Origin: Parcubacteria group bacterium Gr01-1014_3
GTDB taxonomy: Bacteria > Patescibacteriota > Minisyncoccia > UBA6257 > WO2-44-18
Direction: 5' to 3'
NCBI GenBank assembly: GCA_007376445.1
Contig: VMGF01000001.1
Span: 114,875 to 178,874, forward strand
Length of the DNA: 64,000 nt
The position numbers and the translations under genes were made by a program. How positions within the stretch are numbered: the first letter of the stretch is position 1; each line of letters starts with the position of its first letter. Under the pieces are notes generated by a model. The model saw only the letters and a list, made by a program, of their open reading frames with translations. It was not told where the DNA came from and did not search any database. This document shows, in pieces, positions 5,803 to 41,629 of this stretch.

Positions 5803-5804
5803 AA

Positions 5805-7148: not shown

Positions 7149-7200
7149 CATCCTACAAAAAGGATGCTTATAATACAACACCCCGAATGTTCGGGGTGTT
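7149..7200 (-). terminator. Two adjacent hairpins in the intergenic region (candidate terminator after the SDR gene)
   Basis: catcct-acaaaa-aggatg (7149..7166) and aacaccccgaa-tg-ttcggggtgtt (7177..7200). The U-tract is weak on the minus strand and T-rich on the plus strand. Confidence 0.4.
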
Positions 7201-7216
7201 TCATGTTTATTTTTGT

Positions 7217-8080: not shown

Positions 8081-8093
8081 TGAGCCGCAAGTA

Positions 8094-10233: not shown

Positions 10234-10272
10234 GATACTATAACAGAAAAGTTAGTTTTTTCAATCTTACCG

Positions 10273-10341
10273 CCTCCCTTTTCGCTACACGCAAAAGGGA
10301 GGGGTGCTGCGCAAATAAAAAACCCCGAACATTGTTCGGGG
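10273..10341 (-). terminator. Rho-independent terminator (10323..10341 hairpin plus U-tract) and a second 10-bp-stem hairpin (10273..10302)
   Basis: ccccgaa-cattg-ttcgggg is followed on the minus strand by TTTTTTATTT. Upstream hairpin is cctccctttt-(10 nt loop)-aaaagggagg. Located 7 nt after the stop of the 10349..11278 gene. Confidence 0.6.
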
Positions 10342-10348
10342 GGGGTCT

Positions 10349-13491: not shown

Positions 13492-13553
13492 TTGCTACCT
13501 CGTGTTTATTGTAAAAGAAACCACCAATACTATATAAAAAAAGACTGCTTATG

Positions 13554-14555
13554 TCAAAGCAGTCTTTGGAAGTCTGGTTCCGTGGCGACAGTTCCCTGAT
13601 AATCGATTTCGAGCGGAATTCTCGGCCAACCCCCCATCGCCATAGCCTCAGTGACATTCCGAATTGATTCATCATCAGGGCAATAGAAGAGGAAGTAACC
13701 ACCTCCACCGGCGCCGATATTCTTTCCGCCTAAAGCCCCGTTGGCCTTAGCGATTTCATACATCAGATCAAATTTTTCGTTCGAAATCTTATTGGACATC
13801 TGCTTCTTCAGTCGCCAGTGTTCGTCCATCAACTTTCCAAAGGCATCCATATCTCCAGCATTAAATGCCTGCAAGATTGCCCTGCCAATCTCCTTGGTCA
13901 TTTCTTTCAGATCGTAAGCCTTATTATTATCCTGATCGGCCAAAATTTTCTGGCTTGGACCTTCTCGCTTTTCACCGGTGAAGAAAAATAAGGTGTGCTT
14001 CAGAAATTTATTTACCGTGTTCTCTGAAAAGTTTGGCCTGGAAACATCAACCGTTCCGTCCTTCTTTATATAAAGAACTGTAAAGCCACCACTTGCCGCA
14101 AGATAAGGATCCTGCTTGCCATCATGCGCCCAGAGACCACCAAGCCGCTGAGTTATCTCAAACGCTTTCTCGGCCAGAAACGATGTATCCTTGCATTCAC
14201 CCTTAAGGGTGTAAAGGCCGTTTAACAATCCAACCGCGCAAGCTCCCGAAGAACCGAGACCGGTCCCAGCAGGAGAATCGGCGTTGAAAGTAACGCTGAT
14301 AGATTTATCGATACCCACAATCCTCAAAGCTTCACGACCAATATCGTGCTTCAGCTGATCAACCGAATCAACCAGTTCCTGAATACGATAATTAAACTGA
14401 ATCCGGCCATCCATGCGAAGCGGCTTGATCATGATGTGCATGTAGCACTTGATCGCCACGCCAAAAATGAATCCGCCGTACTTTTCGTAATAAGAAGGGA
14501 TGTCAGTCGAACCGCCGCCAAGTGAGATTCGGAACGGGGTCTGGGTAAGTATCAC
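13554..14555 (-). CDS. GHMP sugar kinase, D-glycero-D-manno-heptose-7-phosphate kinase (HddA)-like, 333 aa
   Basis: N-terminal TPFRISLGGGSTD motif and C-terminal GAGGGGYFLFYC glycine-rich motif, typical of the HddA/GHMP family. Confidence 0.75.
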   Translation of the reverse strand: MILTQTPFRISLGGGSTDIPSYYEKYGGFIFGVAIKCYMHIMIKPLRMDGRIQFNYRIQELVDSVDQLKHDIGREALRIVGIDKSISVTFNADSPAGTGLGSSGACAVGLLNGLYTLKGECKDTSFLAEKAFEITQRLGGLWAHDGKQDPYLAASGGFTVLYIKKDGTVDVSRPNFSENTVNKFLKHTLFFFTGEKREGPSQKILADQDNNKAYDLKEMTKEIGRAILQAFNAGDMDAFGKLMDEHWRLKKQMSNKISNEKFDLMYEIAKANGALGGKNIGAGGGGYFLFYCPDDESIRNVTEAMAMGGWPRIPLEIDYQGTVATEPDFQRLL

Positions 14556-14610: not shown

Positions 14611-15405
14611 TTATTTCTTTTTGGCAATCAAGTAAAAACCAGCAGTAATGGTCTCGGCGGACTGGTAATGAATAAAAAGATAATCTAATACTTTCAATGG
14701 CGATGTAAGAATTACCATACTGATCCACAAAAAATCTTTCATTGTTTTGTTATTGAATGAAAGGGCGAGCGCCACCCACTCCTGAAATACGGAGAGTAAG
14801 GCGCAGGTTGGCCCAACATCTGGTCCAATTTCCACCATTTCAAAATCTTTGAAAAGCGTCCGCAAACCATCCGCTGTCCAGCGATAATGGTCCTTTGGGG
14901 ATGGGTGATATGGAGTAATAAAGTTAGTGGTTAAGTATAAATACCCGCCGGGCTTTAAGGCTCGGTTAATTTCAGCGGCAACTTTTACTGGGTCGTGCAT
15001 GTGTTCTAATACCCACGAAAGCACAATGCCGTCAACCGAATTTTCGGCAAAAGGAAGGTCGTGCGCATCGGCCAAAATATCCACCATTGACCATGGATGA
15101 ATATCCACATTCACGATCTCCGGATGAATCCGCCGATTGCCGGAACCAATTTCCACCACCAGGCCATTCTTTGGGGTTAGAGAAAAGATGTGCTTGGGTT
15201 GCTTGCCCAGGAAGAGCGCTGGCGCGATGAAATAAAAAATAAAACTATAAAGCCAAGGAATCTTTTTTAGATTAGTTTTTAACTTATTAATAAAACCGGT
15301 ATGTAAATCGGAACGCATTGCTTCATACCCGGAATCGGGAATAAAAAGAGGCCTGCCATCAATATGACGAATGGGTTGTTTCTTAAATTTTACTCGATTA
15401 TCCAT
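14611..15405 (-). CDS. Class I SAM-dependent methyltransferase with C-terminal membrane helices, paralog A (264 aa)
   Basis: VVEIGSGNRR (motif I) ... LKPGGYLYLTT, plus a C-terminal hydrophobic tail. About 50% identical to 27972..28775. Confidence 0.75.
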   Translation of the reverse strand: MDNRVKFKKQPIRHIDGRPLFIPDSGYEAMRSDLHTGFINKLKTNLKKIPWLYSFIFYFIAPALFLGKQPKHIFSLTPKNGLVVEIGSGNRRIHPEIVNVDIHPWSMVDILADAHDLPFAENSVDGIVLSWVLEHMHDPVKVAAEINRALKPGGYLYLTTNFITPYHPSPKDHYRWTADGLRTLFKDFEMVEIGPDVGPTCALLSVFQEWVALALSFNNKTMKDFLWISMVILTSPLKVLDYLFIHYQSAETITAGFYLIAKKK

Positions 15406-15418
15406 AGCGGGTTATATT

Positions 15419-17266
15419 CTAATGCTTTATTTTATATATTTCTACCGCCTCGTTTCTGTATACTAATTCTAAGTTATTTTCCCGGTGTAGGTCTGCTCGG
15501 CCAAACTGACGCTCCCAGGGTCCATAAAAAGCGTAATCAGCCTCAATATTTTTCCAATCTAGCACAATTTTCTTATAACGGTCCATCAATTCTTTGATTT
15601 TCCATTCTGGCATACCCCGCTTACCGAGATTTTCCGGATCCACAAAAGAAAGTTGATAAAGATACAGCTTGGCGTCCACGATATTGCTCAGACCATATGT
15701 TGTCCCGCAGCTCTCGATGCATGTAATACCATGCCCGGACCTCAAGCGCTTCTCGATTATGCCGGAAGGAATCTTAAATAAAGCGTTCGCGGTAAGGAAT
15801 CTCTCTTCAATTTCATGATTCGATTCAACCGTTACGCCTCCCCATGGTAGAAATGGGCGACCAGCAGTGAAAGCCGCGGTGTAGATCGAGGTTAAAAGCG
15901 ATGGCGAAATAATCCTTGGTTCACCGGGAATATTATTTTCAATCCATTTCCAGGAAGTCAGAATCGATTCGGGAAGCATGTGTTCTTCAATGACCTTAGT
16001 AGAAGGATTGATAAATCTAGTAATGTTGTTTACTTTTTTGACGATTAAGCTGGCCATAAGAGCCATGAAGATCAAAAAGACTATTTTTGCCGGTTTTTGT
16101 CCTATGAATTCAATCCTTCTGATCCCTTCTCGTACAAGATGCATCAAAATTACAAAAAGTGGCGGATTAATTGCCCTCGGCCAATGGTCAGAGTGTGGCA
16201 CATAGCCAATCACTAGCTGGATATTCCAAATCACAAAGGCGGCCGCTAGGATGCTCCAGTATAAAACCGCCCAGTCTCGCTGCTTCAGTATTCGCCAAAA
16301 AACTATGAAAATTAACGCGGCAACCATGGCATACACAAGATAATGAGGCCAAACATTCCAGCGAAAAAATCTACCGAATTCAAGACCAAGCCGATTAATC
16401 AGGTCCTGGCCAGAAGCCAAATGAGAAACTCTAAAATAATTAATAAAGTATGGAATGCTCGTAAAAAGCATTGATCCTAATAACGCCGCATAACTCTTAA
16501 CGCGATTTTTATCACCATGAAAAAAGAAAAGAGTTGCCGTAAAACCAATGCCTAAAACTACCGCCCAAAAAACCCAGATATGGAAATAAGTGTAAAAAAG
16601 CAGTCCTGCGACAACGCCTGATACAATTCCCAATTTTAAACTTGGGCTTTTCCAAAACCAAAAAAATAAAGCAATTGCGGGTAAGTAAACTAGGTGAGTA
16701 AGTAATGGCTGATCGATTCGCGCGTAAAAAAGCAGAGATAAAGCGGTCTGAACTCCAGGATAAAAATTTTTTAATACAATATTGGCAAAATCGCCAAATC
16801 CAAAAAATGCTTCTGTCATTACTAACGACATTGGCGTTAAAATTCCGATCAGACCTAAGATGATGGCCCAGAAATTGTCTTTTTGAAAAATTATTCGCCC
16901 AATAGAGTAAAAAGCTAAAAAAAGAATGGCGGGCAGAAAAAAGCTGGCAAATAAATACGCCGTATTCACATCGCCCACTAGAGCGATAAAGATTCCTAAA
17001 ATAAGCGGAGGTAATGGCGGATAAATGTTCGGCAAAATGTGGCTAAAAAAAAGATCCCCAGGCGGAAAATGACCGTCGGCTACCTCACGAGCAAATTGGA
17101 TGTAAGCGTCTCCCCCGTCATGAAGATTGGTAAGTTGGGAGAGGATAAATGTCCGGCCACTGTTTTCTACCGCCCTTTTTATAAACAACTGGGGCGCGAC
17201 ATATAAAATACCGACAGCGATCGCGAGCAATCCTACGACGACAACCTGCCGATTAAACCGGCTCAT
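15419..17266 (-). CDS. GT-C fold polyprenyl-phosphate-sugar-dependent glycosyltransferase (ArnT/PMT-like), 615 aa polytopic membrane protein
   Basis: First extracytoplasmic loop carries DGGDAYIQFAREVADG, matching the GT-C/PMT DExxYxxxAREM motif. At least 12 predicted TM helices plus a C-terminal soluble domain. Start codon overlaps the stop of the GtrB-like GT2. Confidence 0.6.
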   Translation of the reverse strand: MSRFNRQVVVVGLLAIAVGILYVAPQLFIKRAVENSGRTFILSQLTNLHDGGDAYIQFAREVADGHFPPGDLFFSHILPNIYPPLPPLILGIFIALVGDVNTAYLFASFFLPAILFLAFYSIGRIIFQKDNFWAIILGLIGILTPMSLVMTEAFFGFGDFANIVLKNFYPGVQTALSLLFYARIDQPLLTHLVYLPAIALFFWFWKSPSLKLGIVSGVVAGLLFYTYFHIWVFWAVVLGIGFTATLFFFHGDKNRVKSYAALLGSMLFTSIPYFINYFRVSHLASGQDLINRLGLEFGRFFRWNVWPHYLVYAMVAALIFIVFWRILKQRDWAVLYWSILAAAFVIWNIQLVIGYVPHSDHWPRAINPPLFVILMHLVREGIRRIEFIGQKPAKIVFLIFMALMASLIVKKVNNITRFINPSTKVIEEHMLPESILTSWKWIENNIPGEPRIISPSLLTSIYTAAFTAGRPFLPWGGVTVESNHEIEERFLTANALFKIPSGIIEKRLRSGHGITCIESCGTTYGLSNIVDAKLYLYQLSFVDPENLGKRGMPEWKIKELMDRYKKIVLDWKNIEADYAFYGPWERQFGRADLHRENNLELVYRNEAVEIYKIKH

Positions 17267-18171
17267 CTCTCAATAATTTCTTTAATAAAATAAGGATGGG
17301 CTCGCTCTGTCTCAAAATAAATTCGCCACAGTAATTCAGCTAACAAGCCCAGCATGAACATTAAAAATCCGACAATGGCGAACATCGTGGCCATGATCGG
17401 AAGCGGGGGTTGTCCGAAGAAAACCGCCAAAACTACTGACCAAGCCGTGGCCACGCCGGCAATACCCCAGGCAAGCAAACCCAAAACGCTGAAAAATACC
17501 ATCGGGCGAGTATTCGGGTGTAAAAAGCGCACTACTAATAAATCGGCGATTGCCTTAACACCGGCCGTGAAATGATGCTTGGACATACCAGACTTTCGTT
17601 CATGATGAGTAACCTCGACTTCTGTTACCTTCGCGCCGCGAAAAAAAAGTGATACCGCTAAAAATACATGCTGGACTCCGAATAAATTCATTCCTTCTAA
17701 AAACTTACGCCGGTATGCTTTTAACGCGCAGGCATGGTCATGTAATGGCAATCCGCTGATTGTCCGAGTCAGCCAATTAGCCAACCGGGAATGGATTTTT
17801 CGGCCAAGACTGTCATGCCGATCCTTACGCCAACCGGACACCACGTCATAACCCTCTTTCATTTTCGCCAATAATTTTGGAATATCCCGAGGATCATTCT
17901 GCATATCTCCATCCATAATGACGACGATATCTCCTTTCGCGGCTTTGAGACCGGCGTCTAAGGCCAAGGTTTGACCGAAATTCTTCGGAAACACTATGAT
18001 CTTTATCGGGGACAAAGACTTTAAAATATCGAGCGTGCCGTCTTCAGATCCATTATCAACCACAATAATCTCGTATGGTTCGCCGATTTTATCTAAAGTC
18101 TCCTTATTCAAACGATGCAACTCTTTTACGTTGCCCGCCTCATTATATGTGGGAAAAACAACAGAAATCAT
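17263..18171 (-). CDS. GT2 polyprenol-phosphate glycosyltransferase (GtrB/ArnC/DPM1-like) with two C-terminal TM helices, 302 aa
   Basis: ISVVFPTYNEAGNV...IIVVDNGSEDGT...DGDMQNDP (DxD), and a C-terminal membrane-anchor pair. Confidence 0.85.
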   Translation of the reverse strand: MISVVFPTYNEAGNVKELHRLNKETLDKIGEPYEIIVVDNGSEDGTLDILKSLSPIKIIVFPKNFGQTLALDAGLKAAKGDIVVIMDGDMQNDPRDIPKLLAKMKEGYDVVSGWRKDRHDSLGRKIHSRLANWLTRTISGLPLHDHACALKAYRRKFLEGMNLFGVQHVFLAVSLFFRGAKVTEVEVTHHERKSGMSKHHFTAGVKAIADLLVVRFLHPNTRPMVFFSVLGLLAWGIAGVATAWSVVLAVFFGQPPLPIMATMFAIVGFLMFMLGLLAELLWRIYFETERAHPYFIKEIIER

Positions 18172-18174: not shown

Positions 18175-19095
18175 TTAAAAGACTATATCAGCAGTATCGT
18201 ATCTTGGCAATAAAAAGTCATTATCAGAAGATAGTATGCTTCGCCTATCAATAGTCAGAGCGTATTTAAATCCTTCTGATGCTAATACCTCTAAAACGGC
18301 TGGGCCGTTGCGGCCATGCGGATAAGAAAAAATATCTTGCCGATTCCCTAAAAGATCGAACAAGATTTCCTTACTTAAACGAATATCCTTTTGCATGATG
18401 TCCTTGTTTCCAATGTCAAAAGCGGAATGATTGTGGGAATGGCTGCCAATTGTCATTCCGGCCTGATGCAATGATTTCACCTCTTGCTTACTCATGAATA
18501 ACCGCTGACTTATCTCCTTTTCGTTAAGACCGAAAATTTTAAATCCGTACCTTAAAAACTGTCCCTTGATGTCTTCCGGAAGCATGATCATTGTTTCTTT
18601 GAAATTCGCGATTGAAATAGTTTCGTGCAGTCGCCGCTCAGTCAGTCGGCGATCTTTTGGAATAATGTATTGCTTTTTCAAATCTGGATAAAAATTTTGC
18701 ATAAAATCGTGGAAAGTATCTATAATTTTTTCCGGCGACAATCTGGAAAGCAAAATGTGGACTTTATGGGCAGTTGGCAAATGCCCTTCGAACACGGAAG
18801 TGATCGGGAAAAACGTCGCGGTAGCGTTATATTTTTTCAAAATCGGAAAAGCGTTGATATATTGATCCTTAAGACCATCGTCAAAAGTAATGACGCAATA
18901 TTTACCACTCTTACCGTCGCGCGTAGCCTCGACTAGTTCTGAAACAGAAACAATCTTATAGTTTTCGCTCAAAAACTGGACCTGTTTTTCAAAATCTTTA
19001 ACCGAGCAAGGATAAATCCCCGAAAATTCCGGACTGGGATCTTCCACATAATGGTAATTAACGATTATATAATTGTCGCTTTTGGAATAAGCCAT
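18175..19095 (-). CDS. Polysaccharide deacetylase (CE4, NodB homology domain), 306 aa
   Basis: CVITFDDGLKDQ (TFDDG motif) and TIGSHSHNHSAFD histidine motif. Confidence 0.8.
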   Translation of the reverse strand: MAYSKSDNYIIVNYHYVEDPSPEFSGIYPCSVKDFEKQVQFLSENYKIVSVSELVEATRDGKSGKYCVITFDDGLKDQYINAFPILKKYNATATFFPITSVFEGHLPTAHKVHILLSRLSPEKIIDTFHDFMQNFYPDLKKQYIIPKDRRLTERRLHETISIANFKETMIMLPEDIKGQFLRYGFKIFGLNEKEISQRLFMSKQEVKSLHQAGMTIGSHSHNHSAFDIGNKDIMQKDIRLSKEILFDLLGNRQDIFSYPHGRNGPAVLEVLASEGFKYALTIDRRSILSSDNDFLLPRYDTADIVF

Positions 19096-19097
19096 TT

Positions 19098-20417
19098 TTA
19101 AGTAATTTTTTCTATGAGATCTACGTTGCGCCTGTAAGAAAGTCCGTCCCGAAAAACGAAAAATCGGTCGGCGACCCTCTGTCGATTTTCACTGTCTTTC
19201 ATCGGATTAGCCAAATACTCGTTAATACTACTTAGCATTTCTTCATCGTTTGGAACAAAGCGAATCGCCTTTTCTTTTATTAATGGATAATAGTAGGAAC
19301 TTTCATCAAAATAGTGCTTGTTCTGAAATAATAACGCTGGATCGATAAAATTTATAACCGGCTTGTCAAAAATAAAAGATTCTAAAGAAATAGTTGATTT
19401 GTGATTGATATTTATATCGGTATAAGCCAATGTGGCCTTTAAATTTACGAAAGCGTCTAACTTCTTTTTTGGCTCCGAAATACGCTCCACAAAAATATCT
19501 GGCTCACTCAAAAAAATCCGATACCATTCTGGCTCATCAAAAGGATGGGGGCGAACCAAAAAATTCACATAAGGAATCACGCCTGATTTTCGTAAATCTA
19601 AAATCTTTTTAAAAATCGTGGGCTGGTTCGGGGCGCGGCCGCCAGAGGCGAATAAGATCGTTTTATATTTCGGATTCAGGCCTTTAATGGATAAAAATTC
19701 ATCGCGGCTCGGGATTTGGCGAGAGACGTCAAAATATTGGTCGAACCGCATACTGCCGGTCACAAAAATCCGGTCCGGAGAAAAATGGTGGATTTTGATC
19801 GCCGCGTCCTTGAGCACCTGATTCCAAACAAAAAGGTAGTCCGGCTTACGTGATCGCACGCACTTAAAAGAAGTAAGGTTATCCCAGCTAATGTTAGTGG
19901 CCAGAGTGGGAATACCCATCTTTTTTCCATACAAAATCGCCTCGGCATCAAAGACTTGAACTCCCGGAGTAGCCGTCATAATTAAGGATGGCTGATATTT
20001 CTTGACGTATTCTTCCAGCAAAGAAGATCGCCTCATAAAAAAAAGTTCGAGCGCGGTAAAAAACCGGCTAGTCAAAAATGGCGCGAATGGCCAAGAAATA
20101 AGGCGCAGTAATCTCGCTCTTTTGTCATTCCGGAAAGCGGGACTGTCATAGTAAAACTGCAGGCTCGATACTTTATCAAACTCGTGCATGCAAACGGTGC
20201 GCAGATATTTAGTCACCGCAAAAAGCCTGGGGTTTTGAATTTTCCAAGGCACGCACTCCACGTTCAGGGCAGAAAGGATTTGCTTCGTATCAGAATCGAT
20301 CACATTGCTAAAAATAATCACGCGATATTTTTTGACCAGCTCTTTAATGTAGTTGGTTTTAAGAAGATCGGAGATAAAAAGAGAGTTTTTTAAAAAAAGG
20401 AACAGGGTTTTGTTCAT
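19098..20417 (-). CDS. TagB/TagF-like CDP-alcohol phosphotransferase, paralog 2 (439 aa)
   Basis: Collinear similarity to 3643..5001 and 44157..45512, for example KPVINFIDPALLFQNKHYFDESSYYY versus KPIINIGFEIGQEPDPYKRPTAYY. Confidence 0.55.
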   Translation of the reverse strand: MNKTLFLFLKNSLFISDLLKTNYIKELVKKYRVIIFSNVIDSDTKQILSALNVECVPWKIQNPRLFAVTKYLRTVCMHEFDKVSSLQFYYDSPAFRNDKRARLLRLISWPFAPFLTSRFFTALELFFMRRSSLLEEYVKKYQPSLIMTATPGVQVFDAEAILYGKKMGIPTLATNISWDNLTSFKCVRSRKPDYLFVWNQVLKDAAIKIHHFSPDRIFVTGSMRFDQYFDVSRQIPSRDEFLSIKGLNPKYKTILFASGGRAPNQPTIFKKILDLRKSGVIPYVNFLVRPHPFDEPEWYRIFLSEPDIFVERISEPKKKLDAFVNLKATLAYTDININHKSTISLESFIFDKPVINFIDPALLFQNKHYFDESSYYYPLIKEKAIRFVPNDEEMLSSINEYLANPMKDSENRQRVADRFFVFRDGLSYRRNVDLIEKIT

Positions 20418-20462
20418 TTATGAGTCTTGTAATTGTGCCACAAAAATGCTTAATTATCAATA

Positions 20463-25765: not shown

Positions 25766-27969
25766 TCAAATGTTTCTGGAATTGAAAATCCACTTTGGAT
25801 TAAACAAACTCCAATAATCATATTTAAAAACTACACTATGAAGGCCGGCGGGAACAAAAATTCCCGGAAAGACAGTGTTAACTTTATACATTGGCACTTC
25901 TTGGTCGTCAAGGAAGGCTCTCCAGCCGGGAAGATAATTCTGGGTGAAACCGAACATTCTACTATGATGTCCCTGAAACCACTCGCCTTGAAAGATCGGT
26001 ATATTTCCGATGGATCAGATTTAAAGTCGGTAATATTGGCGAAATAGACCAACGGCTTGGCAGTCGGATTATTATAGATGGCTATCGGAATATGGGCAAT
26101 ATCATCATCGCCAACCCTCAGATTAAGAGACCACTCTCCGATGCGCGGCAAATCTATTTTCGGGGCAAAGTCGTTATGATCAAAGGGAAGAAAGGTCATG
26201 AAATAACGTATTCCCAAAAAATCCGCCAATGGGAGCCGGCTTGCCAATAAGCGATATTTCTCTATTATCGAAAAATCTCGATTATCTTTAATAATGTATG
26301 TCTTATCGAGTTTTTTTTCACCTCCAGTCGTAACTAATTGGCGAGTACCAACTAATGCCATTAATCGACCCATTTCGACATTAAGCAAGGGCTCATTGGC
26401 TTCTAAATTCTCCACGCCATAGAGTAGCTGGAAGTTGGGACGGTAAGTCGGCAAATTAAATGAGGAATTATAAAGAAAATCATCTTTGGGCGGAGTATAT
26501 CCCGGATGAAAGATAGAAAAAAATAAATCGTCCCAGTCATCCGTAAAAAGAGGCAAGACCCTCTCTCTGGTCTCCCTCAGAAAGGCGGCGGTCGGCGGAT
26601 CTTTCTCATAAAAAGAACGGGATACAATAGTAGATATATTAAAGCGGTAAAAAATAACTATAAATTCTAAAAATGCCAAAATGCAAAGCGCTAAGACTTT
26701 GTGGCTGCGAAAAGAGAATGGATAATCTAAGGCTATAGCCAAAGCAATCGCAAGAATAATTGCGGAAATCATTACCGAAAATAAAGTATCCTGATTCTTA
26801 AAAACACCAAGGGCTAAAAGCAAAAAGATGCTTATCCCGACGCCGATTAGACACAGAAGCCCCGTTGCTTTCTTTTTGTTTTGTTCAAAAAACGACATGA
26901 AGTAACTACTCCCATATCCAACAAGAACGGCCGCGGCAAAAGTTCCTATCAACATAAACCGGGCGGCGCCCTGGAAAAGATTAAAAATCGGCAGGTGACT
27001 CAATAATTGAAAAAGAGGTGAGCCGTGAATTGATAAAACAACGGCAATTAAAAATACGCCTCGAAAAAAACCAATCATTTCTCTTTTAACCCAGAATGAA
27101 AGAATTAAAAATATTAGCGGAACCATCCCGGGATACAAATACGCGTCAAGGCCTCGACTGGAAGTCAGATGGAAAAAATTCAGCAATTGTTCCGGCAAAA
27201 TCGCGTACCCTTCATGGGCAAATCCGCCACTTCGTTGTGAAAATTGAGTCATAACATAAGTTGGCACCAACTGAAGCAACCCAATGCCCGTTCCGATCAG
27301 AAAAATGAGGAAAAATGCCGAAAGGATTCGAGGAAAAATCTTTTTGTATCTATCCCTCCAACCCAAGAACAGAACGAAGCTAAAAGCGGCTGACGCGATA
27401 TACAAAATGGGAAAATAAGAAGACATTAGCCAGCCGTACCCGATCAAAAGTCCTCCTAAAAAAATGAGGAGCGCCCGCTTCTTTGTAGAATCGCTCTTAT
27501 ATATCTTAATTAAAATCAAAAAAAGTGCCGGCTGGATAAAAAGCGCGGTTCCTAATACTAAATCTCTCGCAAAGTGAATGTTGCCGGCAAAATAAGCGAA
27601 GGCGCCGATAAAAGACGGCCAAATACCTATATCGAGTTCTCGCATAAATAAAATAAAGAAGAGGCATGCCAATGACAGCGTAAGCCACAGTCCCCAATAA
27701 TGGACAGTTGCTGCCGGGAGAATATACAAAAAAAGATAAATTGGCGCGAACGGGAAACCGCCTATGGAAATAAAGTTAGGAAATCCCGTGGCTATATAAG
27801 GATTCCAAAATGGGCTTTCGCTTTTTGTAATGGCATTCTTATAAAATGTCATCTGGGGGATATTTAATTCAACGGAATCGGTCCCCATCACATAGGCGCC
27901 AATTAAAACCGGAATAGAAACCACCCCGATTATGAAAAAGGAAATTAAAAGAATTTTAGTTGTGTTCAT
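25766..27969 (-). CDS. YfhO-like polytopic membrane protein (GT-C-like candidate), paralog 1, with a reading-frame discontinuity near 25950
   Basis: Main frame runs 25831..27969 (track ORF trimmed to MNTTKIL..., which abuts the stop of the upstream MT). A conserved C-terminal beta-domain (FTQNYLPGWRAFLDDQEVPMYKVNTVFPGIFVPAGLHSVVFKYDYWSLFNPKWIF) is encoded in a different frame at 25766..25957. Confidence 0.5.
25851..25949. repeat. 99-bp segment 100% identical to 29612..29710 (copy 1)
   Basis: Direct reading: ggaacaaaaattcccggaaagacagtgttaactttatacattggcacttcttggtcgtcaaggaaggctctccagccgggaagataattctgggtgaaa appears in both YfhO-like paralogs, although their flanks are diverged. Confidence 0.9.
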
Positions 27970-27971
27970 TT

Positions 27972-28775
27972 CTACTTCTTTCTGGCAATTACATAAAAAC
28001 CGCAAGAAATATATTCAGCGCCGCGATAGCGAATCAAGATCAAATCTAAAAGCTTGATGGGAAAAGTAACTATTACTAAAAACATCCAAATAATATCTTT
28101 TAAAATACGGACATTAAAAGACAACAATAAGGATAACCATTCCTGGGCAATGAATAAAAAGGCGGATGTCGGTCCAATAATTGGCTTAACTTCTACTATC
28201 TCCATATCCGAAAATAAAAAACGGAGTCCCTCCGCCGTCCAACGAGAATAATCATGCGGCGAAGGATGAAATGGCATTAAAAAATTAGTGGCCAGATAAA
28301 GGTAGCCGCCGCTTTTTAAAACCCGCTTCATCTCTCTAATTCCTTGAAGTGGGTTTTCCAAATGCTCTAAGACCCAGGCAGAGACAATGCCATCCAACGA
28401 TTCATCATTAAAGGGCAGGTCCTGGGCATCCGCCAGCACATCTACCTCATTCCACGGATGAATGTCCACGTTGATGATTTCCGGATGCAAACGACGGCTT
28501 CCGGAACCGATTTCCGCGACTAAACCACTAGACGAAACATATTTGAAGATGGACCTTGGCGGCTTCCCCAAGAAAAGCGCCGGCGCAAGAACGTAGAAAA
28601 TGAAAGAATAAAGCCTAGGGAATCGACGGAAAAAAGTCTTCAATCGCACGATAAACCCTGTATGCAGATCCCGCTCCGTCTGCGCATATATATCGTCTTT
28701 GATAAAAAGCGGCCTTCCCTCAATAAATCTCCTAGGTGGTATTTTAAATTTTAAACGCTCCAGCTTCGATTTCAT
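27972..28775 (-). CDS. Class I SAM-dependent methyltransferase with C-terminal membrane helices, paralog B (267 aa)
   Basis: VAEIGSGSRR ... LKSGGYLYLATNF; about 50% identical to 14611..15405. Confidence 0.75.
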   Translation of the reverse strand: MKSKLERLKFKIPPRRFIEGRPLFIKDDIYAQTERDLHTGFIVRLKTFFRRFPRLYSFIFYVLAPALFLGKPPRSIFKYVSSSGLVAEIGSGSRRLHPEIINVDIHPWNEVDVLADAQDLPFNDESLDGIVSAWVLEHLENPLQGIREMKRVLKSGGYLYLATNFLMPFHPSPHDYSRWTAEGLRFLFSDMEIVEVKPIIGPTSAFLFIAQEWLSLLLSFNVRILKDIIWMFLVIVTFPIKLLDLILIRYRGAEYISCGFYVIARKK

Positions 28776-29562: not shown

Positions 29563-31706
29563 ACAAGCTCCAGTAATCATATTCAAATTGCACGGTATGG
29601 ATGCCGGCAGGAACAAAAATTCCCGGAAAGACAGTGTTAACTTTATACATTGGCACTTCTTGGTCGTCAAGGAAGGCTCTCCAGCCGGGAAGATAATTCT
29701 GGGTGAAATTCGTATATTTCCATCGGATCTGATTTGAAAGCGGTAACATCGGCGAAATAGGCCAGTGGTCTGGCGTTCGGATTTAAATAAGTTGATATCG
29801 GAAGACTGGCGGCTTCTTCGTTGCCAATGGCTAGATCAAGAAACCACCTTCCAACTAACGGCAGGGTTATCTTCGGATCAAGCTGGTCAAAAGCGAAGGG
29901 GCTCATAAAATAACGTATTCCCAAAAAATCCGCCAATGGGAGCCGGCTGGCCAGTAAGCGATGTTTCTCTATGACCGAAATATCTCGACCATCTTTAACC
30001 ACGTATGTCTTGTCCAGCTTTTTTTCACCACCGTCTGTAACCAGTTGCCGGGTACCTAAAAAAGCCAGCAGTCTTCCCATCTCCACATTAAGAAGAGGAT
30101 CATTGATTTCCAGGGTCTCTATTCCATAAAGCAACGAGTAATTGGGGCGGTAAGTCGGTAAATCAAGTGAAAGGTTATAAAGAAGATCTTCCTTGGGTGG
30201 TGTATCCCCAGGACGAAATTGATAAAAAAATGTATCGTCCCAGTCATCCACGAAAAGCGGCAAGACTCGGCCAGGCTGTCCCTTAAAAAAATCTAAAGTT
30301 GCTGGCTTCATTTCATAAAGACGCCTATCGATCACAAACGACTTATTGAATGAATAAAAGAACATGGCCATGTCTAAAACCGTAAGAATTGTTAGTAACG
30401 GTAAAAGCAGTAGTAGTTTTTTAACAGACAGCTTAAAAATTAAATAAACCAGGGTTAAAAAAACAGCGGAAATAAGCACCGAATAAAAAACGGTCTGGGT
30501 TCGAAAAACAAGAATGGTCAGGATCATTAAAGAGGCCATTCCAATTGTAATTGCCGTTAATCTTTTTTTAATTATCGCGCCGCCTAAAACATATTCACAC
30601 CCGAAACCCACTAAAACCGATCCGGCAAATGCGCCGACAAACATAAACCTCGCCGATCCCTGGAAATAGCTGAACAGGGGTAATTTAATAATCAACCAAA
30701 ACAATGGAGATCCTTTAATGGAGATTGCTAGAGCAATCAAAAAAAACCATCGGAAAAATTTTGCAATGGGATTTTTACTGAAAAAAGAGAAAATAAGCAG
30801 CATTAGTGGCGCGATGCCTAAATACAAATAAGCTTCGAGACCTCGCTGCGGCGTAAGGTGCACAAAGTTCAACAGTTCCTTAAAACCAATCGCATATCCT
30901 TGGGCAACCTGATAGGCCAGCCCGGCGCTTCGTCCCGAAAACTGGGCCATGATATATACGGGAACCAACTGCAACGCGCCAATTAAACTGCCGATTAAAA
31001 ATGATGCAGCCAGCGCCGCGATTAATCTATAAAAAACTATTTTGCCATGTTTTATACCAAGAAAAACTACGAACGCGAGGAGAGTGGTAAAAATATAGAG
31101 GTTTCCAAAATACACCACAGTTGTCAGCCATCCCCAGGCCACCGCGAGTGAGCCAATCCCCGCGTATAAAACAAATTTTTGCCAACCAGAACTTTTCAAA
31201 ATCATCATAATAACCAAAAAAAGAACTGCCTGAACCAAGAGGATATTTATTACGGTGGCATTTTGTGACCAATAGAAATCTCCGATGATATAGCTTAGGC
31301 CGCCAATCAACGAACCCCAAGTTCCGATACCTAGTTCGCGTAGAAAACGAACAGAGAAAAAAAGTGTTAGCGACAGCGCAAACCACAAATACCAATAATG
31401 GGCCGCTATAGGAGATAAAAAGCGCGCCAATTGAACCACTGGCGCGAACGGACTGCTTAAATTGCTGATAAAATTCGGAAATCCAACGGCTATATACGGG
31501 TTCCAAAACGGGCTTTCGCCTTTCGCGAACGCGTCTTTAAAAAAAGTGAGCTGAGGAATCATCAACTCTGAGGCATCGGCTGAAAGCACTTTGCTGCCGC
31601 TAAGCATCGGAAACAGGAGAATGAAAAATAAAACAAAGCAAACTATCAAAAGACCCCACCAGGTGCTGACAAGATTCCGAACACGCTCTAAAATAGAAGG
31701 TCGCAT
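29540..31706 (-). CDS. YfhO-like polytopic membrane protein, paralog 2, with a reading-frame discontinuity near 29710
   Basis: Main frame 29667..31706 (679 aa). Conserved C-terminal domain (FTQNYLPGWRAFLDDQEVPMYKVNTVFPGIFVPAGIHTVQFEYDYWSLFNPRWIF) lies in another frame at 29540..29749. Homologous along its length with 25831..27969. Confidence 0.5.
29612..29710. repeat. 99-bp segment 100% identical to 25851..25949 (copy 2)
   Basis: See copy 1. Confidence 0.9.
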
Positions 31707-31709: not shown

Positions 31710-32453
31710 TTATCCGCGATCTTTCCTAGCGATACAGAGCAGCGATGCTCCAAATGGGAAGCTTACCCAGCGCAATAATTTTCCTTCAAGGCCAAATAAC
31801 CAACCCATCACGCTATTCAGGATCTTTGGCATGGCAAAAACATCCGATCCGCTCGTACGAATTCCAAATAAATTTTTTATAAGGCGAAAAAGAGCAATGG
31901 GTGGAAAAAAGAAAGTATTGAAATAGGTCATCTTTACTATAGTTAATCCAGTAGCCTCGCTGATCGCGGCACGCATTTGTTTTTTAGTATATCGCCTCTG
32001 GTGATGCGAGATAGTATCATGTTCGCTCCACAAGAACTTGTAGGCGGGAACCGTCACCATCATTACTCCCCCGGGCTCCAGGACAGATTCAATTTTCTTC
32101 AATGCCGTTCGATCATCCCTAATGTGCTCCAGAGAATCAAATAGGGTAACAAACTGGAAGGTTTGATTGACCTCAACGTCCGGCCACTCACCTTTTATAA
32201 TGTTCAGATTTTTATCCTTTTTCTTAAGCATTCCGATCATTTCATCCGCCATTTCCACGCACCATACCGAATCGGCTATCTTGGACACTAACGCTGTGCA
32301 AAATCCGGTCCCACAGCCAACATCAAGCGCGCGCTCAACGTGACGTGGTATTACTTTATGATTAAGCATATTAGAAATAACCTTTTGTCGGCCGGTAAAC
32401 CACCAGTGCGTTTCTTCTAAACGCTCATAATCTGCATAAAGACTTTTTTCCAT
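31710..32453 (-). CDS. Class I SAM-dependent methyltransferase, 247 aa
   Basis: ALDVGCGTGFCTALV (motif I) ... LEPGGVMMVTVP. Confidence 0.75.
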   Translation of the reverse strand: MEKSLYADYERLEETHWWFTGRQKVISNMLNHKVIPRHVERALDVGCGTGFCTALVSKIADSVWCVEMADEMIGMLKKKDKNLNIIKGEWPDVEVNQTFQFVTLFDSLEHIRDDRTALKKIESVLEPGGVMMVTVPAYKFLWSEHDTISHHQRRYTKKQMRAAISEATGLTIVKMTYFNTFFFPPIALFRLIKNLFGIRTSGSDVFAMPKILNSVMGWLFGLEGKLLRWVSFPFGASLLCIARKDRG

Positions 32454-38875: not shown

Positions 38876-40781
38876 ATAATGAAGCTTGTGAAATTCAATA
38901 TCTTCTTAGTGGCCTCGGCAATACTCGTTGGGCTACTTTATATCGCCCCGCCGTTAATTGTGAAATATCACCTTCAGAAAGATGGACGGGTTTTCGCGTT
39001 AAATTATGAAGTTTATAGAGACGAACTTTTTTATCTTTCCCGCGCGCGGGAAATTTATGACGGGCATTTTCCTCCCAGCGATCTCCACTTTGACGAACAG
39101 CGCCCCACCGTGCAGAATCCCATCCCCTCGCTAATCCTCGCGGGGATGATTGCTCTTACTGGTGGCAATATTCACACCAGCTACCTCATCGCCCAATTTG
39201 TATTCACGCCAATAATCTTTCTGCTGTTTTATTGGTTAGGAACATTACTTTTCAAGGAATCTCACTGGGCAATTCTTTTTGCTTTCGTTGGCGTACTCAC
39301 GCCAATAGCAATGAGGATTTTAAACTTTAATGGCGCCTAATCTCTATCAAATATTTACCGATTTTAACTCGGACGGCCCGGCCGAATCTTTCCGGGAAGT
39401 TTTGGGTTATTTCGTTAAACAGTTCTGGCCGCTGGTAAACACCCAGATCGAAAAACTTTACTTCGCCAGACTCGATTATCCCCTGATCGTTTTCCCTTTT
39501 TACCTACTCGCTATCTTAGGTTTTTGGCTGTTTTGGCAAAAACCTGGAGTCAAAACCGCGGTCTTAGCCGCCATTCCAGCCGGCGCGCTATTTTATATTT
39601 ATTTTCATTTCTGGGTTTATTGGATCGCGGTACTCGGCATTTTATTCATTTATTCTCTGGTGAATTACAAAAAAAATCCCATTCTGGGTAAGAATTTCCT
39701 GATTCTGGTTAGCATAATCACGCTTATCGCCATACCCTATTTTATCAACTATTTTCAATTTCTCGGGCAAATGGAAGTTCAGGATTTCATTTACCGCCTC
39801 GGTATTGCCGAAGGACGAGTAGTCGGATTAGCTACGATGGGATTTGCCTATCTCTTTTATATAATCGTTGGTATCGCGGTTTACTTTACTTACTTCAAGA
39901 ATGATCGGCGGCGCGCCATTTTATTCTGGGGTATGTTAGCCGCCATGTTCGTAGTCTGGAATATTCAACTAATAGTTGGCTATGCGCCCTCGCCAAACAA
40001 TTGGCGGCGAACCATCAGTCCAATTTTATTTATCATCATCTTCAATCTAATTTATGATTGGTCGCAAATAACCATTAAAAAATGGCCCCGGATAAACTTT
40101 AAGAAATACATCCTTATTGGCGTAATGATTTTGTCGGTCTTGGTAGTCACCAAAAAAATAGTCAATGTTTATGTGATCTATCAAAATCCGGAACCAAGAA
40201 TACTCAATGGCCAAACCCTTGATCAAGATTTTATGGATTCTTTCGCCTGGATCAATGTCAATTTACCGCCGGAATCAAAAATCGCCAGTAATTCTTATAT
40301 GACTTCGTCTTATCTTAGCCTCTACACATCAGCGAGGCCGTTTCTTCCACTCGGGCTATTTTCGCCAAGATCTACTAATGAATTAGAAAACCGCTTTTTA
40401 ATTGCTCATCGACTATTCGGAACTTCGCCGGAAATACTCGCCAAGGTGCTTGATTCCAGCCTTCCAATAAAATGCGATCAAGGCTGCCCGTCAAATACCG
40501 AAGACAATCTTCGCAAAAATACCTGGCTTCTTTATGGCCACTTTTTCCGCGATTCCGATTTCAATGAATTTATGATTTCTCCAAAATCGATCACCAAAGA
40601 ATATATTGGTTCGCTTATATCGCGTTACCAAAAAATTAATCTCGATTGGAAAGTTATTGATGCCGAGTACGTCTACGTCGGGCCTTGGGAGCGCCAGCTT
40701 GGATTGCCTAATTTCCAATACAATAAAAATTTACAGATCATATATGAGAATAAATCTGTAAAAATTTATAAAAAACAATAA
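38876..40781 (+). pseudogene. ArnT/PMT-like GT-C glycosyltransferase paralog, disrupted by a 1-nt frameshift near 39330..39340 (or sequencing error)
   Basis: Two track ORFs (38765..39340 and 39330..40781) are together collinear with the 15419..17266 protein: DELFYLSRAREIYDGHFPPSDL versus DAYIQFAREVADGHFPPGDL, WNIQLIVGYAPSPNNWRRTISP versus WNIQLVIGYVPHSDHWPRAINP, and C-terminal VGPWERQLG versus YGPWERQFG. The frames switch at aatggcgcctaa. Confidence 0.6.
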
Positions 40782-41629
40782 TGAACTGCCCTGTTTGCGC
40801 CTCTTCTAAAACATCCGAATGGAAAAAGGATGGGCCATATAATTTCTTGAGGTGCGATAACTGCGGGTTGATTTTTATTTCAAAAATCGGCTACCCGGAA
40901 AATCCGGAAGAACAATATAAATCAGACGCGACTTCATTTAGCGAATATCATCTTATCACCGCGCCGAATGATAGAAAAAATTTTATAAAAACTTTAAAGG
41001 AATTAGAAAGGTATCAAAAACCAAAAACTATACTGGACGTTGGAGCCAATGTTGGAACATTTCTACTAGCCGCCAAAGAGCGCGGCTGGCGGGGCATTGG
41101 AATAGAACCAACTCCCAAGGCAGTATCAATTGCTCGTAAAGATGGCGGGGAGATCATTGAGGGATTCTTTGATGAAAATTTTCCTGAAAAATTGTCTAAG
41201 GCGTATCCTGGTATAGAGATTGACGCGGTACATATGGGCGATGTTATTGAACACTTATTTGATCCTTTGGTTTTACTAAGAACAGCGAAACGGGTCCTTT
41301 CTAAAAATGGTTATCTTGTGATAGTAACTCCTGATATTGACAGTTTTTTGGCCAGGAAGTATCAGATCAAACCAAAGGAGCATCTCGTTTATTTCAATAA
41401 AAAATCTCTCCGGCTAGCGCTTGAAAGATCTGGCTTTGAAGTTCTTTCCATTCATGGACAAGCTAGAATCCGCGATATTGGAAATGCCGCAAAAGGAACC
41501 GTTAAGCTTTCAACTACGGAACTTGTGATTGCCTCCATCGCGAGACTTCCTCTAATTGGAAAGATTCTTAACAACAGCCTGCGGCTTTTCAAAGATGAGC
41601 TATTTGTATTGGCTAGGGTAAAAAACTAA
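40781..41629 (+). CDS. Class I SAM-dependent methyltransferase with N-terminal zinc ribbon, 282 aa
   Basis: CPVCASS...CDNCGLIF (CxxC...CxxC) then ILDVGANVGTFL (motif I) ... LSKNGYLVIVTP. Confidence 0.75.
   Translation: MNCPVCASSKTSEWKKDGPYNFLRCDNCGLIFISKIGYPENPEEQYKSDATSFSEYHLITAPNDRKNFIKTLKELERYQKPKTILDVGANVGTFLLAAKERGWRGIGIEPTPKAVSIARKDGGEIIEGFFDENFPEKLSKAYPGIEIDAVHMGDVIEHLFDPLVLLRTAKRVLSKNGYLVIVTPDIDSFLARKYQIKPKEHLVYFNKKSLRLALERSGFEVLSIHGQARIRDIGNAAKGTVKLSTTELVIASIARLPLIGKILNNSLRLFKDELFVLARVKN

What the first reader, a model, noticed from the sequence alone, without database searches (positions are those of the whole stretch)
14611..18171. GtrB-like GT2, ArnT/PMT-like GT-C and membrane-anchored methyltransferase as a three-gene module; the GT-C is duplicated elsewhere
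- GT2: the gene at 17263..18171 has the DPM1/GtrB architecture (catalytic GT2 domain plus two C-terminal TM helices) that makes polyprenyl-phosphate-sugar.
- GT-C: its stop overlaps the start of a 615-aa polytopic protein whose first loop carries DGGDAYIQFAREVADG, the GT-C/PMT DExxYxxxAREM signature.
- Methyltransferase: directly downstream is a membrane-anchored SAM-MT (paralog A).
- Duplication: a second copy of the GT-C lies at 38876..40781, and a second copy of the MT lies at 27972..28775 next to a YfhO-like protein.
- Inference: this is a periplasmic-face glycosylation step with coupled methylation. A methyltransferase tethered beside a GT-C transferase is not a textbook module.
Basis: partly seen in the sequence, partly recalled or inferred. 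Interest (0 to 1): 0.6.

Follow-up and report, generated by a model that had tools for sequence, protein, structure and literature searches.

The report
Sugar-transfer module with linked methyltransferase
A tiny groundwater bacterium (Parcubacteria) carries a cell-surface sugar-decorating gene set built around a previously unclassified membrane glycosyltransferase family that repeatedly travels with, and is once fused to, a methyltransferase, a partnership absent from the one review of such systems checked here.

Summary
The three genes are real and tightly packed on the minus strand of a Parcubacteria genome.

- **GT2 (17263-18171):** a polyprenyl-phosphate sugar synthase. It aligns end to end with solved ArnC, GtrB and DPMS.
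- **Methyltransferase (14611-15405):** a normal class-I SAM enzyme. A true membrane anchor is not supported, and methylation must occur in the cytoplasm.
- **Linkage:** the exact gene order recurs in four other genomes. 11 of 16 methyltransferases of this family abut the GT-C gene. One relative is a methyltransferase-GT-C fusion. All four GT-C-type genes in the window, two of them YfhO-family, have an adjacent methyltransferase.
- **Second copy:** it is a conserved two-gene split, not one gene.

Verdict: a new variant of the known multi-component transmembrane glycosylation system. The sugar, the acceptor, the flippase and the methylation target are unknown.

The parts
17263..18171 (-). GT2 polyprenyl-phosphate sugar synthase (GtrB/ArnC/DPMS type), 302 aa, with a C-terminal two-helix membrane hairpin
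   Evidence: Pfam Glycos_transf_2 1e-32. NCBIfam ArnC model 2.7e-51 over 8-313 of 316 positions and PgfS 2e-37, both below their equivalog cut-offs. Full-length matches to solved ArnC 9hwj (3e-46), GtrB 5ekp and DPMS 5mlz. Hydrophobic region 222-285.
15419..17266 (-). GT-C-fold glycosyltransferase of a family with no Pfam or NCBIfam model, 615 aa: N-terminal polytopic domain plus a C-terminal soluble domain of about 200 aa
17054..17119 (-). Codons for loop-1 residues 50-71 (DGGDAYIQFAREVADGHFPPGD), containing the candidate catalytic Asp50
   Evidence: Across 173 full-length members: D50 is D in 158 and E in 7; position 51 is E in 93 and G in 31; Y55 138; R60 117; E61 120; G65 158; D71 146. D50 lies between the short helices 43-47 and 55-63 of the model. 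Solved ArnT carries PDEGRYAEISREMFASGDW at the equivalent place.
14611..15405 (-). Class-I SAM methyltransferase MT_A, 264 aa, with a conserved hydrophobic N-terminal element and a helical hairpin inserted between the last two beta-strands
   Evidence: Pfam Methyltransf_11 1.8e-14. AF2 pLDDT 85 with helices 50-60, 199-215 and 220-244. Nearest solved folds are small-molecule and sugar MTs at TM 0.40-0.48. Directly downstream of the GT-C in L007, L008, L011 and L015.
18175..19095 (-). CE4 polysaccharide deacetylase without signal peptide or TM segment, 3 nt upstream of the GT2
   Evidence: Pfam Polysacc_deac_1 3e-21. No hydrophobic segment. Junction. Across loci it is coupled mainly to the TagF-like gene.
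19098..20417 (-). TagF/TagB-like transferase, first gene of the tightly packed run. It resembles the BFO_1060 family of candidate nonulosonic-acid transferases
   Evidence: Pfam Glyphos_transf 4.5e-11. NCBIfam BFO_1060 family 1.2e-21. BFO_1060 is one of the Tannerella candidate Pse/Leg transferase homologues aligned in PMC5420450, where the homologues Tanf_01245 and TFUB4_00887 were the ones tested. A CMP-sugar synthetase-type gene is divergent at 20463-21200.
13554..14555 (-). GHMP sugar kinase (HddA-like), conserved downstream of the MT and followed by a strong terminator-like hairpin
   Evidence: NCBIfam HddA model 1.5e-33, below cut-off. Syntenic in L011, L015 and others. Terminator-like site 13567-13540.
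38879..39340 (+). N-terminal piece (153 aa) of the split GT-C paralog: TM1, loop 1 with YRDELFYLSRAREIYDGHFPP, and TM2-4
   Evidence: Frame analysis. Junction conserved in L029 with a frame-preserving 3-nt indel.
39330..40781 (+). C-terminal piece (483 aa) of the split GT-C paralog
   Evidence: 36% identity to residues 165-612 of the 615-aa protein, E 2e-88. C-terminal-only relatives of about 484-489 aa recur: P0046-48, P0087, P0090.
40781..41629 (+). Methyltransferase MT_C (zinc ribbon plus Methyltransf_23). Its start overlaps the stop of the split GT-C (TAATG)
   Evidence: Pfam 1e-23. Junction. Aligns end to end with the MT domain fused to a GT-C in P0146.
27972..28775 (-). Methyltransferase MT_B, 59% identical to MT_A, 3 nt upstream of a YfhO-family gene
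25831..28005 (-). YfhO-family membrane protein (724-aa ORF; the ATG at 27969 gives the annotated 712 aa)
   Evidence: No direct Pfam hit. 17 of 21 relatives carry PF09586. 50% identical to 29667-31706.
29667..31706 (-). Second YfhO-family membrane protein, 679 aa
   Evidence: Its 724-aa paralog's relatives carry PF09586.
31710..32453 (-). Methyltransferase MT_D, 3 nt upstream of the second YfhO-family gene
   Evidence: Pfam Methyltransf_23/11. Junction.

Best explanation

1. The GT2 uses a nucleotide sugar to make a polyprenyl-monophosphate sugar on the cytoplasmic face. The enzyme class is shown by homology; the sugar is unknown.
2. The class-I methyltransferase, which must work in the cytoplasm, most likely methylates that lipid-linked sugar before it is flipped. 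This step is inferred.
3. An unidentified flippase moves the donor outward. No candidate of the GtrA type is encoded in the window.
4. The 615-aa GT-C enzyme, using conserved Asp50 in its outward-facing first loop as catalytic base, transfers the sugar onto an extracytoplasmic acceptor. The fold, the conserved Asp and the topology argument are shown. Catalysis and the acceptor are inferred. The acceptor is most likely the glycopolymer made by the TagF-like and other transferases of the same island.

MT plus GT-C forms a reusable decoration cassette, present four times in this window across two unrelated GT-C families.
For: - **GT2 class:** full-length matches to ArnC, GtrB and DPMS structures and to the ArnC and PgfS NCBIfam models.
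- **Donor type and topology:** relatives carry GT2 fused N-terminally in 6 cases, a GtrA domain in 1, an MT in 1 and GT4 in 1. In P0082 the GT2 domain runs straight into TM1. The fusions lie on long contigs and P0187 is seen on 16 contigs.
- **MT coupling:** exact GT2-GTC-MT_A order in L007, L008, L011 and L015. 11 of 16 MT_A-family genes abut the GT-C gene at a median gap of 8 bp, against 9 of 27 for GT2 and 0-2 for most other families; binomial P is 3e-8 to 3e-5. The P0146 fused MT aligns end to end with MT_C. MT-YfhO pairs recur in L033, L034 and L036.
- **Operon packing:** gaps of 2, 3, -4 and 13 nt.
- **Precedents:** three-component systems (PMC11127046; PMC8035078). A SAM methyltransferase (AglP) is a component of the Haloferax Agl pathway alongside GT2 and GT-C-type steps (PMC3871713).
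Against: - No biochemical data exist for any member.
- The GT-C family fails every sequence HMM tried, so the assignment rests on a predicted structure.
- In the window's copy the family's usual DE is DG. Asp53 might compensate, or activity might differ.
- No flippase gene is found in the module or the window apart from a weak Wzx-like hit at 45512-46891.
- The MT's substrate cannot be read from its fold. It could equally act on a nucleotide sugar or on the cytoplasmic polymer precursor.
- The island holds at least 10 methyltransferases, so some adjacency could reflect density. The adjacency statistic treats related genomes as independent.
- The module order is not conserved in more distant family members.
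Confidence: 0.6

Rival explanations
1. The glycosylation system is the same, but the methyltransferase acts upstream on the nucleotide sugar, or on the cytoplasmic lipid-linked polymer as a chain-terminating or capping step of the WbdD type. It would not act on the polyprenyl-P-monosaccharide donor, and its adjacency to GT-C genes would reflect co-regulation of one decoration pathway.
For: The MT fold is a generic small-molecule class-I fold. Its nearest solved neighbours include the sugar O-MTs RebM and AtmM, which act on soluble substrates. No true TM anchor is present. The island is dense in sugar-nucleotide enzymes and MTs. Methyl capping by WbdD-type terminators is established (mentioned in PMC11127046).
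Against: The MT is linked to the GT-C gene more tightly than to the GT2 or to any sugar-nucleotide gene. In P0146 it is physically fused to a GT-C, which tethers it at the membrane. Its hydrophobic elements are strongly conserved in sequence, which suggests a lipid-facing function.
Confidence: 0.25
2. The 615-aa protein is an oligosaccharyltransferase or glycopolymer ligase that moves a preassembled glycan from polyprenyl-diphosphate onto a protein (S-layer or pilin) or onto the wall. It would not be a single-sugar decorating enzyme.
Against: The OST-defining WWDxG motif is absent from all 173 family members. The alpha/beta C-terminal core is shared by many non-OST GT-Cs (PMC10265970). Fusions and synteny point to a DPM1/GtrB-type monophosphate-sugar synthase and to GtrA. 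The best structural hit is AftA, which uses a polyprenyl-monophosphate sugar.
Confidence: 0.08
3. The adjacency is incidental. These are unrelated glycan genes crowded into a large biosynthetic island, with no specific functional coupling between the MT and the GT-C.
For: There are at least 10 MT genes in 64 kb. The module order varies in distant relatives. The promoter scan is no better than chance.
Against: 11 of 16 are adjacent at a median 8-bp gap, in at least three different orientations. An MT-GT-C fusion exists. The pairing is repeated with an unrelated GT-C family (YfhO) both in this window and in 3 of 4 other genomes examined.
Confidence: 0.07

Closest known systems
Three-component / multi-component transmembrane glycosylation systems (GtrA-GtrB-Gtr*; CsbB-GtcA-YfhO; GacI-GacK-GacL)
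   Same: A membrane-linked GT-A (GT2) enzyme makes a polyprenyl-P-sugar, and a polytopic GT-C enzyme with an acidic first outer loop transfers it outside the cell (PMC11127046, PMC8035078). Relatives of the GT-C here are fused to GT2 or to GtrA.
   Different: No GtrA or other dedicated flippase lies in the module or the window. The third conserved partner is a SAM methyltransferase, and the one review of these systems checked here does not mention methylation. The GT-C belongs to a family without any Pfam or NCBIfam model.
Arn pathway (ArnC-ArnD-ArnE/F-ArnT) for lipid A aminoarabinose
   Same: The GT2's best match is ArnC over its full length. The GT-C loop-1 motif resembles ArnT's DEGRYAEISREM. 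From general knowledge, ArnD shows that a lipid-linked sugar can be chemically modified on the cytoplasmic face before flipping. A CE4 deacetylase, ArnD's superfamily, sits just upstream.
   Different: The GT2 scores far below the ArnC equivalog cut-off (174 against 529 bits). The PMT_2 HMM does not recognise the GT-C (E 6.5). The deacetylase has no ArnD match and is coupled to the TagF-like gene rather than to the GT2. The host is a monoderm, so it would lack lipid A.
Mycobacterial AftA (GT85), the best structural match
   Different: Only 9% sequence identity. AftA has two extra N-terminal helices, so its catalytic loop is ECL2. Its donor comes from the PRPP-based route, not from a GT2 enzyme. 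No methyltransferase partner is described in the parts of that paper read here.
Haloferax volcanii Agl pathway (AglD/AglJ GT2, AglR, AglS, AglB, AglP)
   Same: [quoted passage not shown] The window's GT2 also hits the AglJ model (7.6e-24).
   Different: In the review read here AglP is not described as adjacent to, or fused with, the GT-C-type genes. The system is archaeal protein N-glycosylation with an OST. Here the MT is the GT-C's tightest neighbour, and the OST motif is absent.

Membership tests
GT-C glycosyltransferase superfamily (fold level) | Polytopic N-terminal membrane domain with the GT-C helix arrangement, plus a soluble C-terminal alpha/beta domain | tested here: met
GT-C glycosyltransferase superfamily (fold level) | Conserved acidic residue (modified DxD/DEx) on the first long extracytoplasmic loop between two short helices | tested here: met
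   D50 is D in 158 and E in 7 of 173 members, and the next position is E in 93. It lies between helices 43-47 and 55-63.
GT-C glycosyltransferase superfamily (fold level) | The acidic loop faces the outside of the cell | tested here: met
   The evidence is indirect. GT2, MT and GT4 domains, which need cytoplasmic substrates, are fused directly before TM1 in nine relatives, so the N-terminus is inside and loop 1 is outside. The N-terminus MSRFNRQ is positively charged. There is no experimental topology.
GT-C glycosyltransferase superfamily (fold level) | Uses a polyprenyl-phosphate-linked sugar donor | not testable with these tools
   Supported only by context: an overlapping GT2 of the ArnC/GtrB/DPMS type, and GT2 and GtrA fusions.
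Pfam PMT_2 / ArnT (PF13231) and PMT (PF02366) | Significant match to the family HMM | tested here: not met
   PMT_2 scores E 6.5 and 7.4 bits against a cut-off of 26.1; PMT gives no hit. There is motif-level resemblance to ArnT loop 1 only.
Oligosaccharyltransferase (STT3/AglB/PglB) | WWDxG motif in the C-terminal domain | tested here: not met
   0 of 173 members contain WWDxG.
Polyprenyl-phosphate glycosyltransferase GT2 (GtrB/ArnC/DPMS type) | GT-A catalytic domain followed by a C-terminal membrane hairpin, alignable over the full length to solved members | tested here: met
   Residues 2-300 align to ArnC 10-314 (3e-46), GtrB 5ekp (3.5e-23) and DPMS 5mlz (5e-20). Hydrophobic region 222-285.
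ArnC equivalog (NF007986) | Score above the curated equivalog cut-off | tested here: not met
   174.5 bits against a cut-off of 529. The enzyme class is the same, but it is not an ArnC ortholog, so the sugar is unknown.
Classical three-component system (GtrA-GtrB-Gtr*) | A GtrA-type small flippase encoded with the GT2 and the GT-C | tested here: not met
   No small polytopic ORF exists in the window other than the split GT-C N-terminal piece. A GtrA domain is fused to a family member elsewhere (P0157).
Class-I SAM-dependent methyltransferase | Rossmann-type SAM-binding core with a Gly-rich motif I and an acidic residue after strand 2 | tested here: met
   Methyltransf_11 scores 54.5 bits against a cut-off of 21.2. 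G87-S88-G89, D101 and D113 are at least 90% conserved. The class-I fold is confirmed.
   Segment 49-67 is modelled as the 11-residue helix 50-60 at pLDDT 59-80. A single span there would put the SAM domain outside the cell. Peripheral or monotopic association remains possible.
YfhO family (PF09586), for the 724- and 679-aa neighbours | Match to the YfhO HMM | tested here: inconclusive
   There is no direct hit even at E 10. However, 17 of 21 homologs, including those at 40-52% identity, carry PF09586 (L033-L036).

The most novel reading that the evidence does not exclude
Patescibacteria use modular MT + GT-C cassettes as a distinct 'methyl-glycosylation' mechanism. A dedicated methyltransferase, sometimes fused to the GT-C, methylates the polyprenyl-phosphate monosaccharide on the inner leaflet, so that each GT-C installs a specific O- or N-methylated sugar on the cell surface. 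The 615-aa protein would found a new GT-C family, including naturally split two-polypeptide enzymes and GT2-GT-C single-chain 'make-and-use' fusions.
Probability: 0.35. Interest if true: 0.7.

Novelty: new variant of a known kind. Interest (0 to 1): 0.55.

Why it matters
Candidate-phyla-radiation bacteria are mostly uncultured symbionts, and their surfaces mediate attachment to hosts. Almost nothing is known about their surface glycans.

This finding defines a large GT-C family of about 1,900 cluster representatives that current HMM libraries miss entirely. It gives the family a testable catalytic residue and topology. It also shows that a methyltransferase is the family's most consistent genomic partner.

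If the methyltransferase acts on the lipid-linked donor, that would add a modification step to the transmembrane glycosylation paradigm, comparable to ArnD deformylation. It would also explain how these organisms diversify their surface sugars. The conserved split GT-C and the GT2-, GtrA- and MT-fused forms are natural experiments. They could show how donor synthesis, flipping and transfer are physically coupled.

Tried and rejected
- **Sequence searches on the 615-aa protein:** Pfam and NCBIfam scans, including E up to 10, gave nothing usable. PDB searches with the single sequence and with a 44-sequence profile gave nothing.
- **AFDB:** the afdb50 fold library was unavailable, so the nearest annotated AFDB families could not be listed.
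- **Relationship between the two membrane-protein families:** hhalign of the GT-C family against the 724/679-aa family gave probability 1.6%, so they are not detectably related.
- **OST hypothesis:** rejected, because WWDxG is absent.
- **ArnD-ArnC-ArnT analogy:** considered and down-weighted. The deacetylase has no ArnD hit, and across about 10 loci it overlaps the TagF-like gene rather than the GT2.
- **Flippase:** the search for a GtrA-like flippase in the window found none.
- **Frameshift artefact for the second copy:** rejected, because the same overlapping junction occurs in L029 with a frame-preserving indel. The L032 split is a different case, caused by a 34-nt tandem duplication.
- **MT substrate:** the fold search on the MT did not discriminate between substrates.
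- **Promoters:** the promoter scan was not above chance.
- **Literature:** no described MT component of these systems was found in the searches run and the review checked.


Full report
**Source and observation.** The window matches Parcubacteria group bacterium Gr01-1014_3: P0001 is 100% identical to the 615-aa protein, which is annotated 'hypothetical'. The GT2 stop and the GT-C start share ATGA, and the GT-C stop lies 13 nt before the MT start. Upstream, a TagF-like gene and a CE4 deacetylase are separated by 2 and 3 nt. The five genes therefore form one tightly packed run, followed by a GHMP kinase and a strong terminator-like hairpin at 13567-13540.

**The GT2.** It has a Glycos_transf_2 domain (1e-32) and a C-terminal hydrophobic hairpin at about 222-285. 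It aligns over its whole length with the NCBIfam ArnC model (2.7e-51) and with PgfS. It also aligns with solved ArnC (3e-46, residues 2-300 against 10-314), Synechocystis GtrB and Pyrococcus DPMS. All of these are polyprenyl-phosphate glycosyltransferases. The score is far below the ArnC equivalog cut-off, so the enzyme class is established but the sugar is not.

**The 615-aa protein.** No Pfam or NCBIfam model matches it, even at E=10; PMT_2 scores E 6.5. Neither the sequence nor a 44-member profile hits any PDB chain. An AlphaFold2 model built from that alignment is highly confident (pLDDT 93.2, pTM 0.92).

Across 173 full-length members the first loop carries D-E-x3-Y-x-P-R-A-R-E-V-Y-D-G-H-F-P-P-G-D. 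Position 50 is Asp in 158 and Glu in 7. The next residue is Glu in 93 and Gly in 31, and the window's copy is a D-G variant. In the model, Asp50 lies between two short helices (43-47 and 55-63). That is the position of the catalytic Asp described for GT-C cores (PMC10265970). WWDxG, the oligosaccharyltransferase signature, is absent from all 173 members.

**Topology and donor.** Nine relatives have N-terminal extensions. These are GT2 in six, a zinc-ribbon Methyltransf_23 domain in one (P0146), GtrA in one (P0157) and GT4 in one. In P0082 the GT2 domain runs straight into TM1 of the GT-C part. Because these enzymes need cytoplasmic substrates, the N-terminus is inside and loop 1 is outside. 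The fusions lie on contigs of up to 158 kb, and P0187 is seen on 16 contigs. Fusion to a monophosphate-sugar-synthase-type GT2 and to GtrA argues for polyprenyl-P-monosaccharide donors, as in three-component systems (PMC11127046, PMC8035078).

**The methyltransferase.** MT_A is a bona fide class-I enzyme: it passes the Methyltransf_11 cut-off and keeps a conserved GSG, D101 and D113. Its model (pLDDT 85) shows the hydrophobic stretch 49-67 as an 11-residue helix. It also shows a helical hairpin (199-215, 220-244) inserted between the last two strands. A single membrane span at 49-67 would export the SAM-dependent domain, which makes no sense. 'Membrane-anchored' is therefore not supported, although the strongly conserved hydrophobic elements may contact the membrane or a lipid substrate. 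The nearest solved folds are RebM/AtmM sugar O-MTs, phosphoethanolamine N-MTs, TleD and a GPP C-MT, all at TM 0.40-0.48, so the substrate is undetermined. Methylation must be cytoplasmic.

**Is the linkage real?** 27 related loci were fetched from Patescibacteria genomes, and the window's proteins were searched against their six-frame ORFs.

- The exact GT2-GTC-MT_A order, with overlapping ends, recurs in L007, L008, L011 and L015. L007, L011 and L015 also keep the GHMP kinase and B12-radical-SAM genes downstream. L007 and L011 keep intact deacetylase and TagF-like genes upstream; in L015 the deacetylase is present only as fragments.
- After de-duplication, 11 of 16 MT_A/B/E-family genes directly abut a family GT-C gene, at a median gap of 8 bp. 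The corresponding counts are 9 of 27 for GT2, 6 of 38 for TagF-like, 2 of 13 for the deacetylase and 0-1 for four other families. Binomial P is 3e-8 to 3e-5 under adjacency priors of 0.10-0.20.
- The adjacency occurs in at least three arrangements: co-directional downstream, convergent, and MT upstream.
- The fused MT of P0146 aligns end to end with MT_C, and MT_C's start overlaps the stop of the window's second GT-C copy.

Caveat: the loci are phylogenetically related, so the P values overstate independence.

**Generality.** The window's two other large membrane proteins (724 and 679 aa, 50% identical) get no direct Pfam hit. Even so, 17 of 21 relatives carry PF09586 YfhO, and YfhO is listed among the GT-C-type glycosyltransferases in PMC8035078. 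Each of the two has an MT gene 3 nt upstream. MT-YfhO pairs with overlapping ends recur in L033, L034 and L036, though not in L035. The two membrane-protein families are not detectably related (hhalign probability 1.6%). So MT + GT-C pairing appears four times in this window and spans two GT-C families.

**The second copy is a conserved split.** The N-terminal 153 aa (38879-39340: TM1, loop 1 with a canonical RDE...AREIYDGHFPP, and TM2-4) and the C-terminal 483 aa (39330-40781) are in different frames and overlap by 11 nt. L029, from a different Parcubacteria genome, has the same junction (...LNFYGTA* overlapping ATGGCACTGCCTAATCTC) with a 3-nt indel that preserves both frames. C-terminal-only relatives of about 484-489 aa recur. 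This is a genuine two-gene GT-C, not an error.

**Context.** The 64-kb window is a glycan island. It contains:
- heptose-type sugar-nucleotide genes (SIS isomerase, transaldolase, nucleotidyltransferase, HddA-like kinase);
- NeuB plus a CMP-sugar synthetase;
- three TagF-like genes;
- several GT4s;
- a weak Wzx-like hit;
- at least nine class-I MTs, a C-methyltransferase and a B12 radical-SAM enzyme.

No GtrA-like ORF is present.

[quoted passage not shown] The GT2 makes a polyprenyl-P-sugar, the GT-C transfers it outside using Asp50, and the linked MT modifies the sugar in the cytoplasm, most plausibly on the lipid carrier before flipping. The enzyme classes, the fold, the conserved Asp, the topology argument and the genomic coupling are shown. 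The identity of the sugar, the acceptor, the flippase and the MT's exact substrate are inferred or unknown.

Relative to known systems this is a new variant of a known kind. The logic is the familiar GtrB/GT-C one. The GT-C family is unmodelled in Pfam and NCBIfam, the MT partner is not part of the paradigm as described in the one review checked (no occurrence of 'methyl' in PMC8035078), and split and fused architectures exist. The closest precedent for methylation within such a pathway is Haloferax AglP (PMC3871713).

Noticed in passing
window 38879-39340 and 39330-40781; L029 10290-10470: The second GT-C copy is a naturally split enzyme. Its two ORFs overlap by 11 nt (ATGGCGCCTAA). The junction is conserved in a different Parcubacteria genome, with a frame-preserving 3-nt indel. 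The catalytic loop-1 piece and the remainder of the enzyme are therefore separate polypeptides.
   Followed up: partly
P0080, P0082, P0118, P0155, P0165, P0187 (GT2-GT-C); P0157 (GtrA-GT-C); P0110 (GT4-GT-C); P0146 (MT-GT-C): Single-chain fusions join the donor-making or modifying cytoplasmic enzyme, or the putative flippase, to the outward-acting GT-C. In P0082 the GT2's own membrane hairpin is replaced by TM1 of the GT-C.
   Followed up: partly
window 18175-20417; L007, L014, L018, L020, L022, L025, L026, L027, L030: The TagF-like gene and the signal-peptide-less CE4 deacetylase form their own tightly coupled pair, with overlapping or abutting ORFs in about 10 loci. This linkage is tighter than the deacetylase's linkage to the GT2.
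   Followed up: partly
window 19098-21200 and 24861-25730: The TagF-like protein matches the BFO_1060 family of candidate pseudaminic/legionaminic-acid transferases from Tannerella. It sits beside a CMP-sugar synthetase-type gene and near NeuB, which suggests a nonulosonic-acid-containing surface glycan.
   Followed up: partly
window 11950-14555: An HddA-like GHMP kinase and a B12-binding radical-SAM enzyme stay syntenic downstream of the module in L011 and L015, with looser forms in L007, L013 and L026. The radical-SAM enzyme's best hit is a P-methyltransferase family, far below cut-off. Its role is unknown.
   Followed up: no
window 5030-11889: This stretch holds a probable modified-heptose nucleotide-sugar pathway: a transaldolase, a SIS isomerase, a nucleotidyltransferase, several epimerases/dehydratases and oxidoreductases, and a NUDIX protein.
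   Followed up: no
window 14611-44184: Methyltransferase density is unusually high: at least nine class-I MTs, a sugar C-methyltransferase (35947-37227) and a B12 radical-SAM enzyme within about 30 kb.
   Followed up: partly
window 27969-28005: The mechanical ORF start (TTG at 28005) for the 724-aa YfhO-family gene overlaps MT_B. The ATG at 27969 gives the 712-aa product annotated in NCBI, 3 nt after the MT_B stop, and is the more likely start.
   Followed up: yes
L032 2160-2330: A family member is broken by a 34-nt perfect tandem duplication (GGTCGCACAGCAGGTTTGGTTAGAGCCAATATAC x2). This is either an assembly artefact or a recent pseudogenisation, and it is unrelated to the conserved split.
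   Followed up: no
window 22884-24860; L034 7691-9337: A protein of about 640-660 aa with only a weak nucleotidyltransferase (NTP_transf_2) domain sits next to NeuB both in the window and in another genome. Its function is unknown.
   Followed up: no
window 54847-58611: A 1254-aa protein has only a peptidoglycan-binding domain hit.
   Followed up: no
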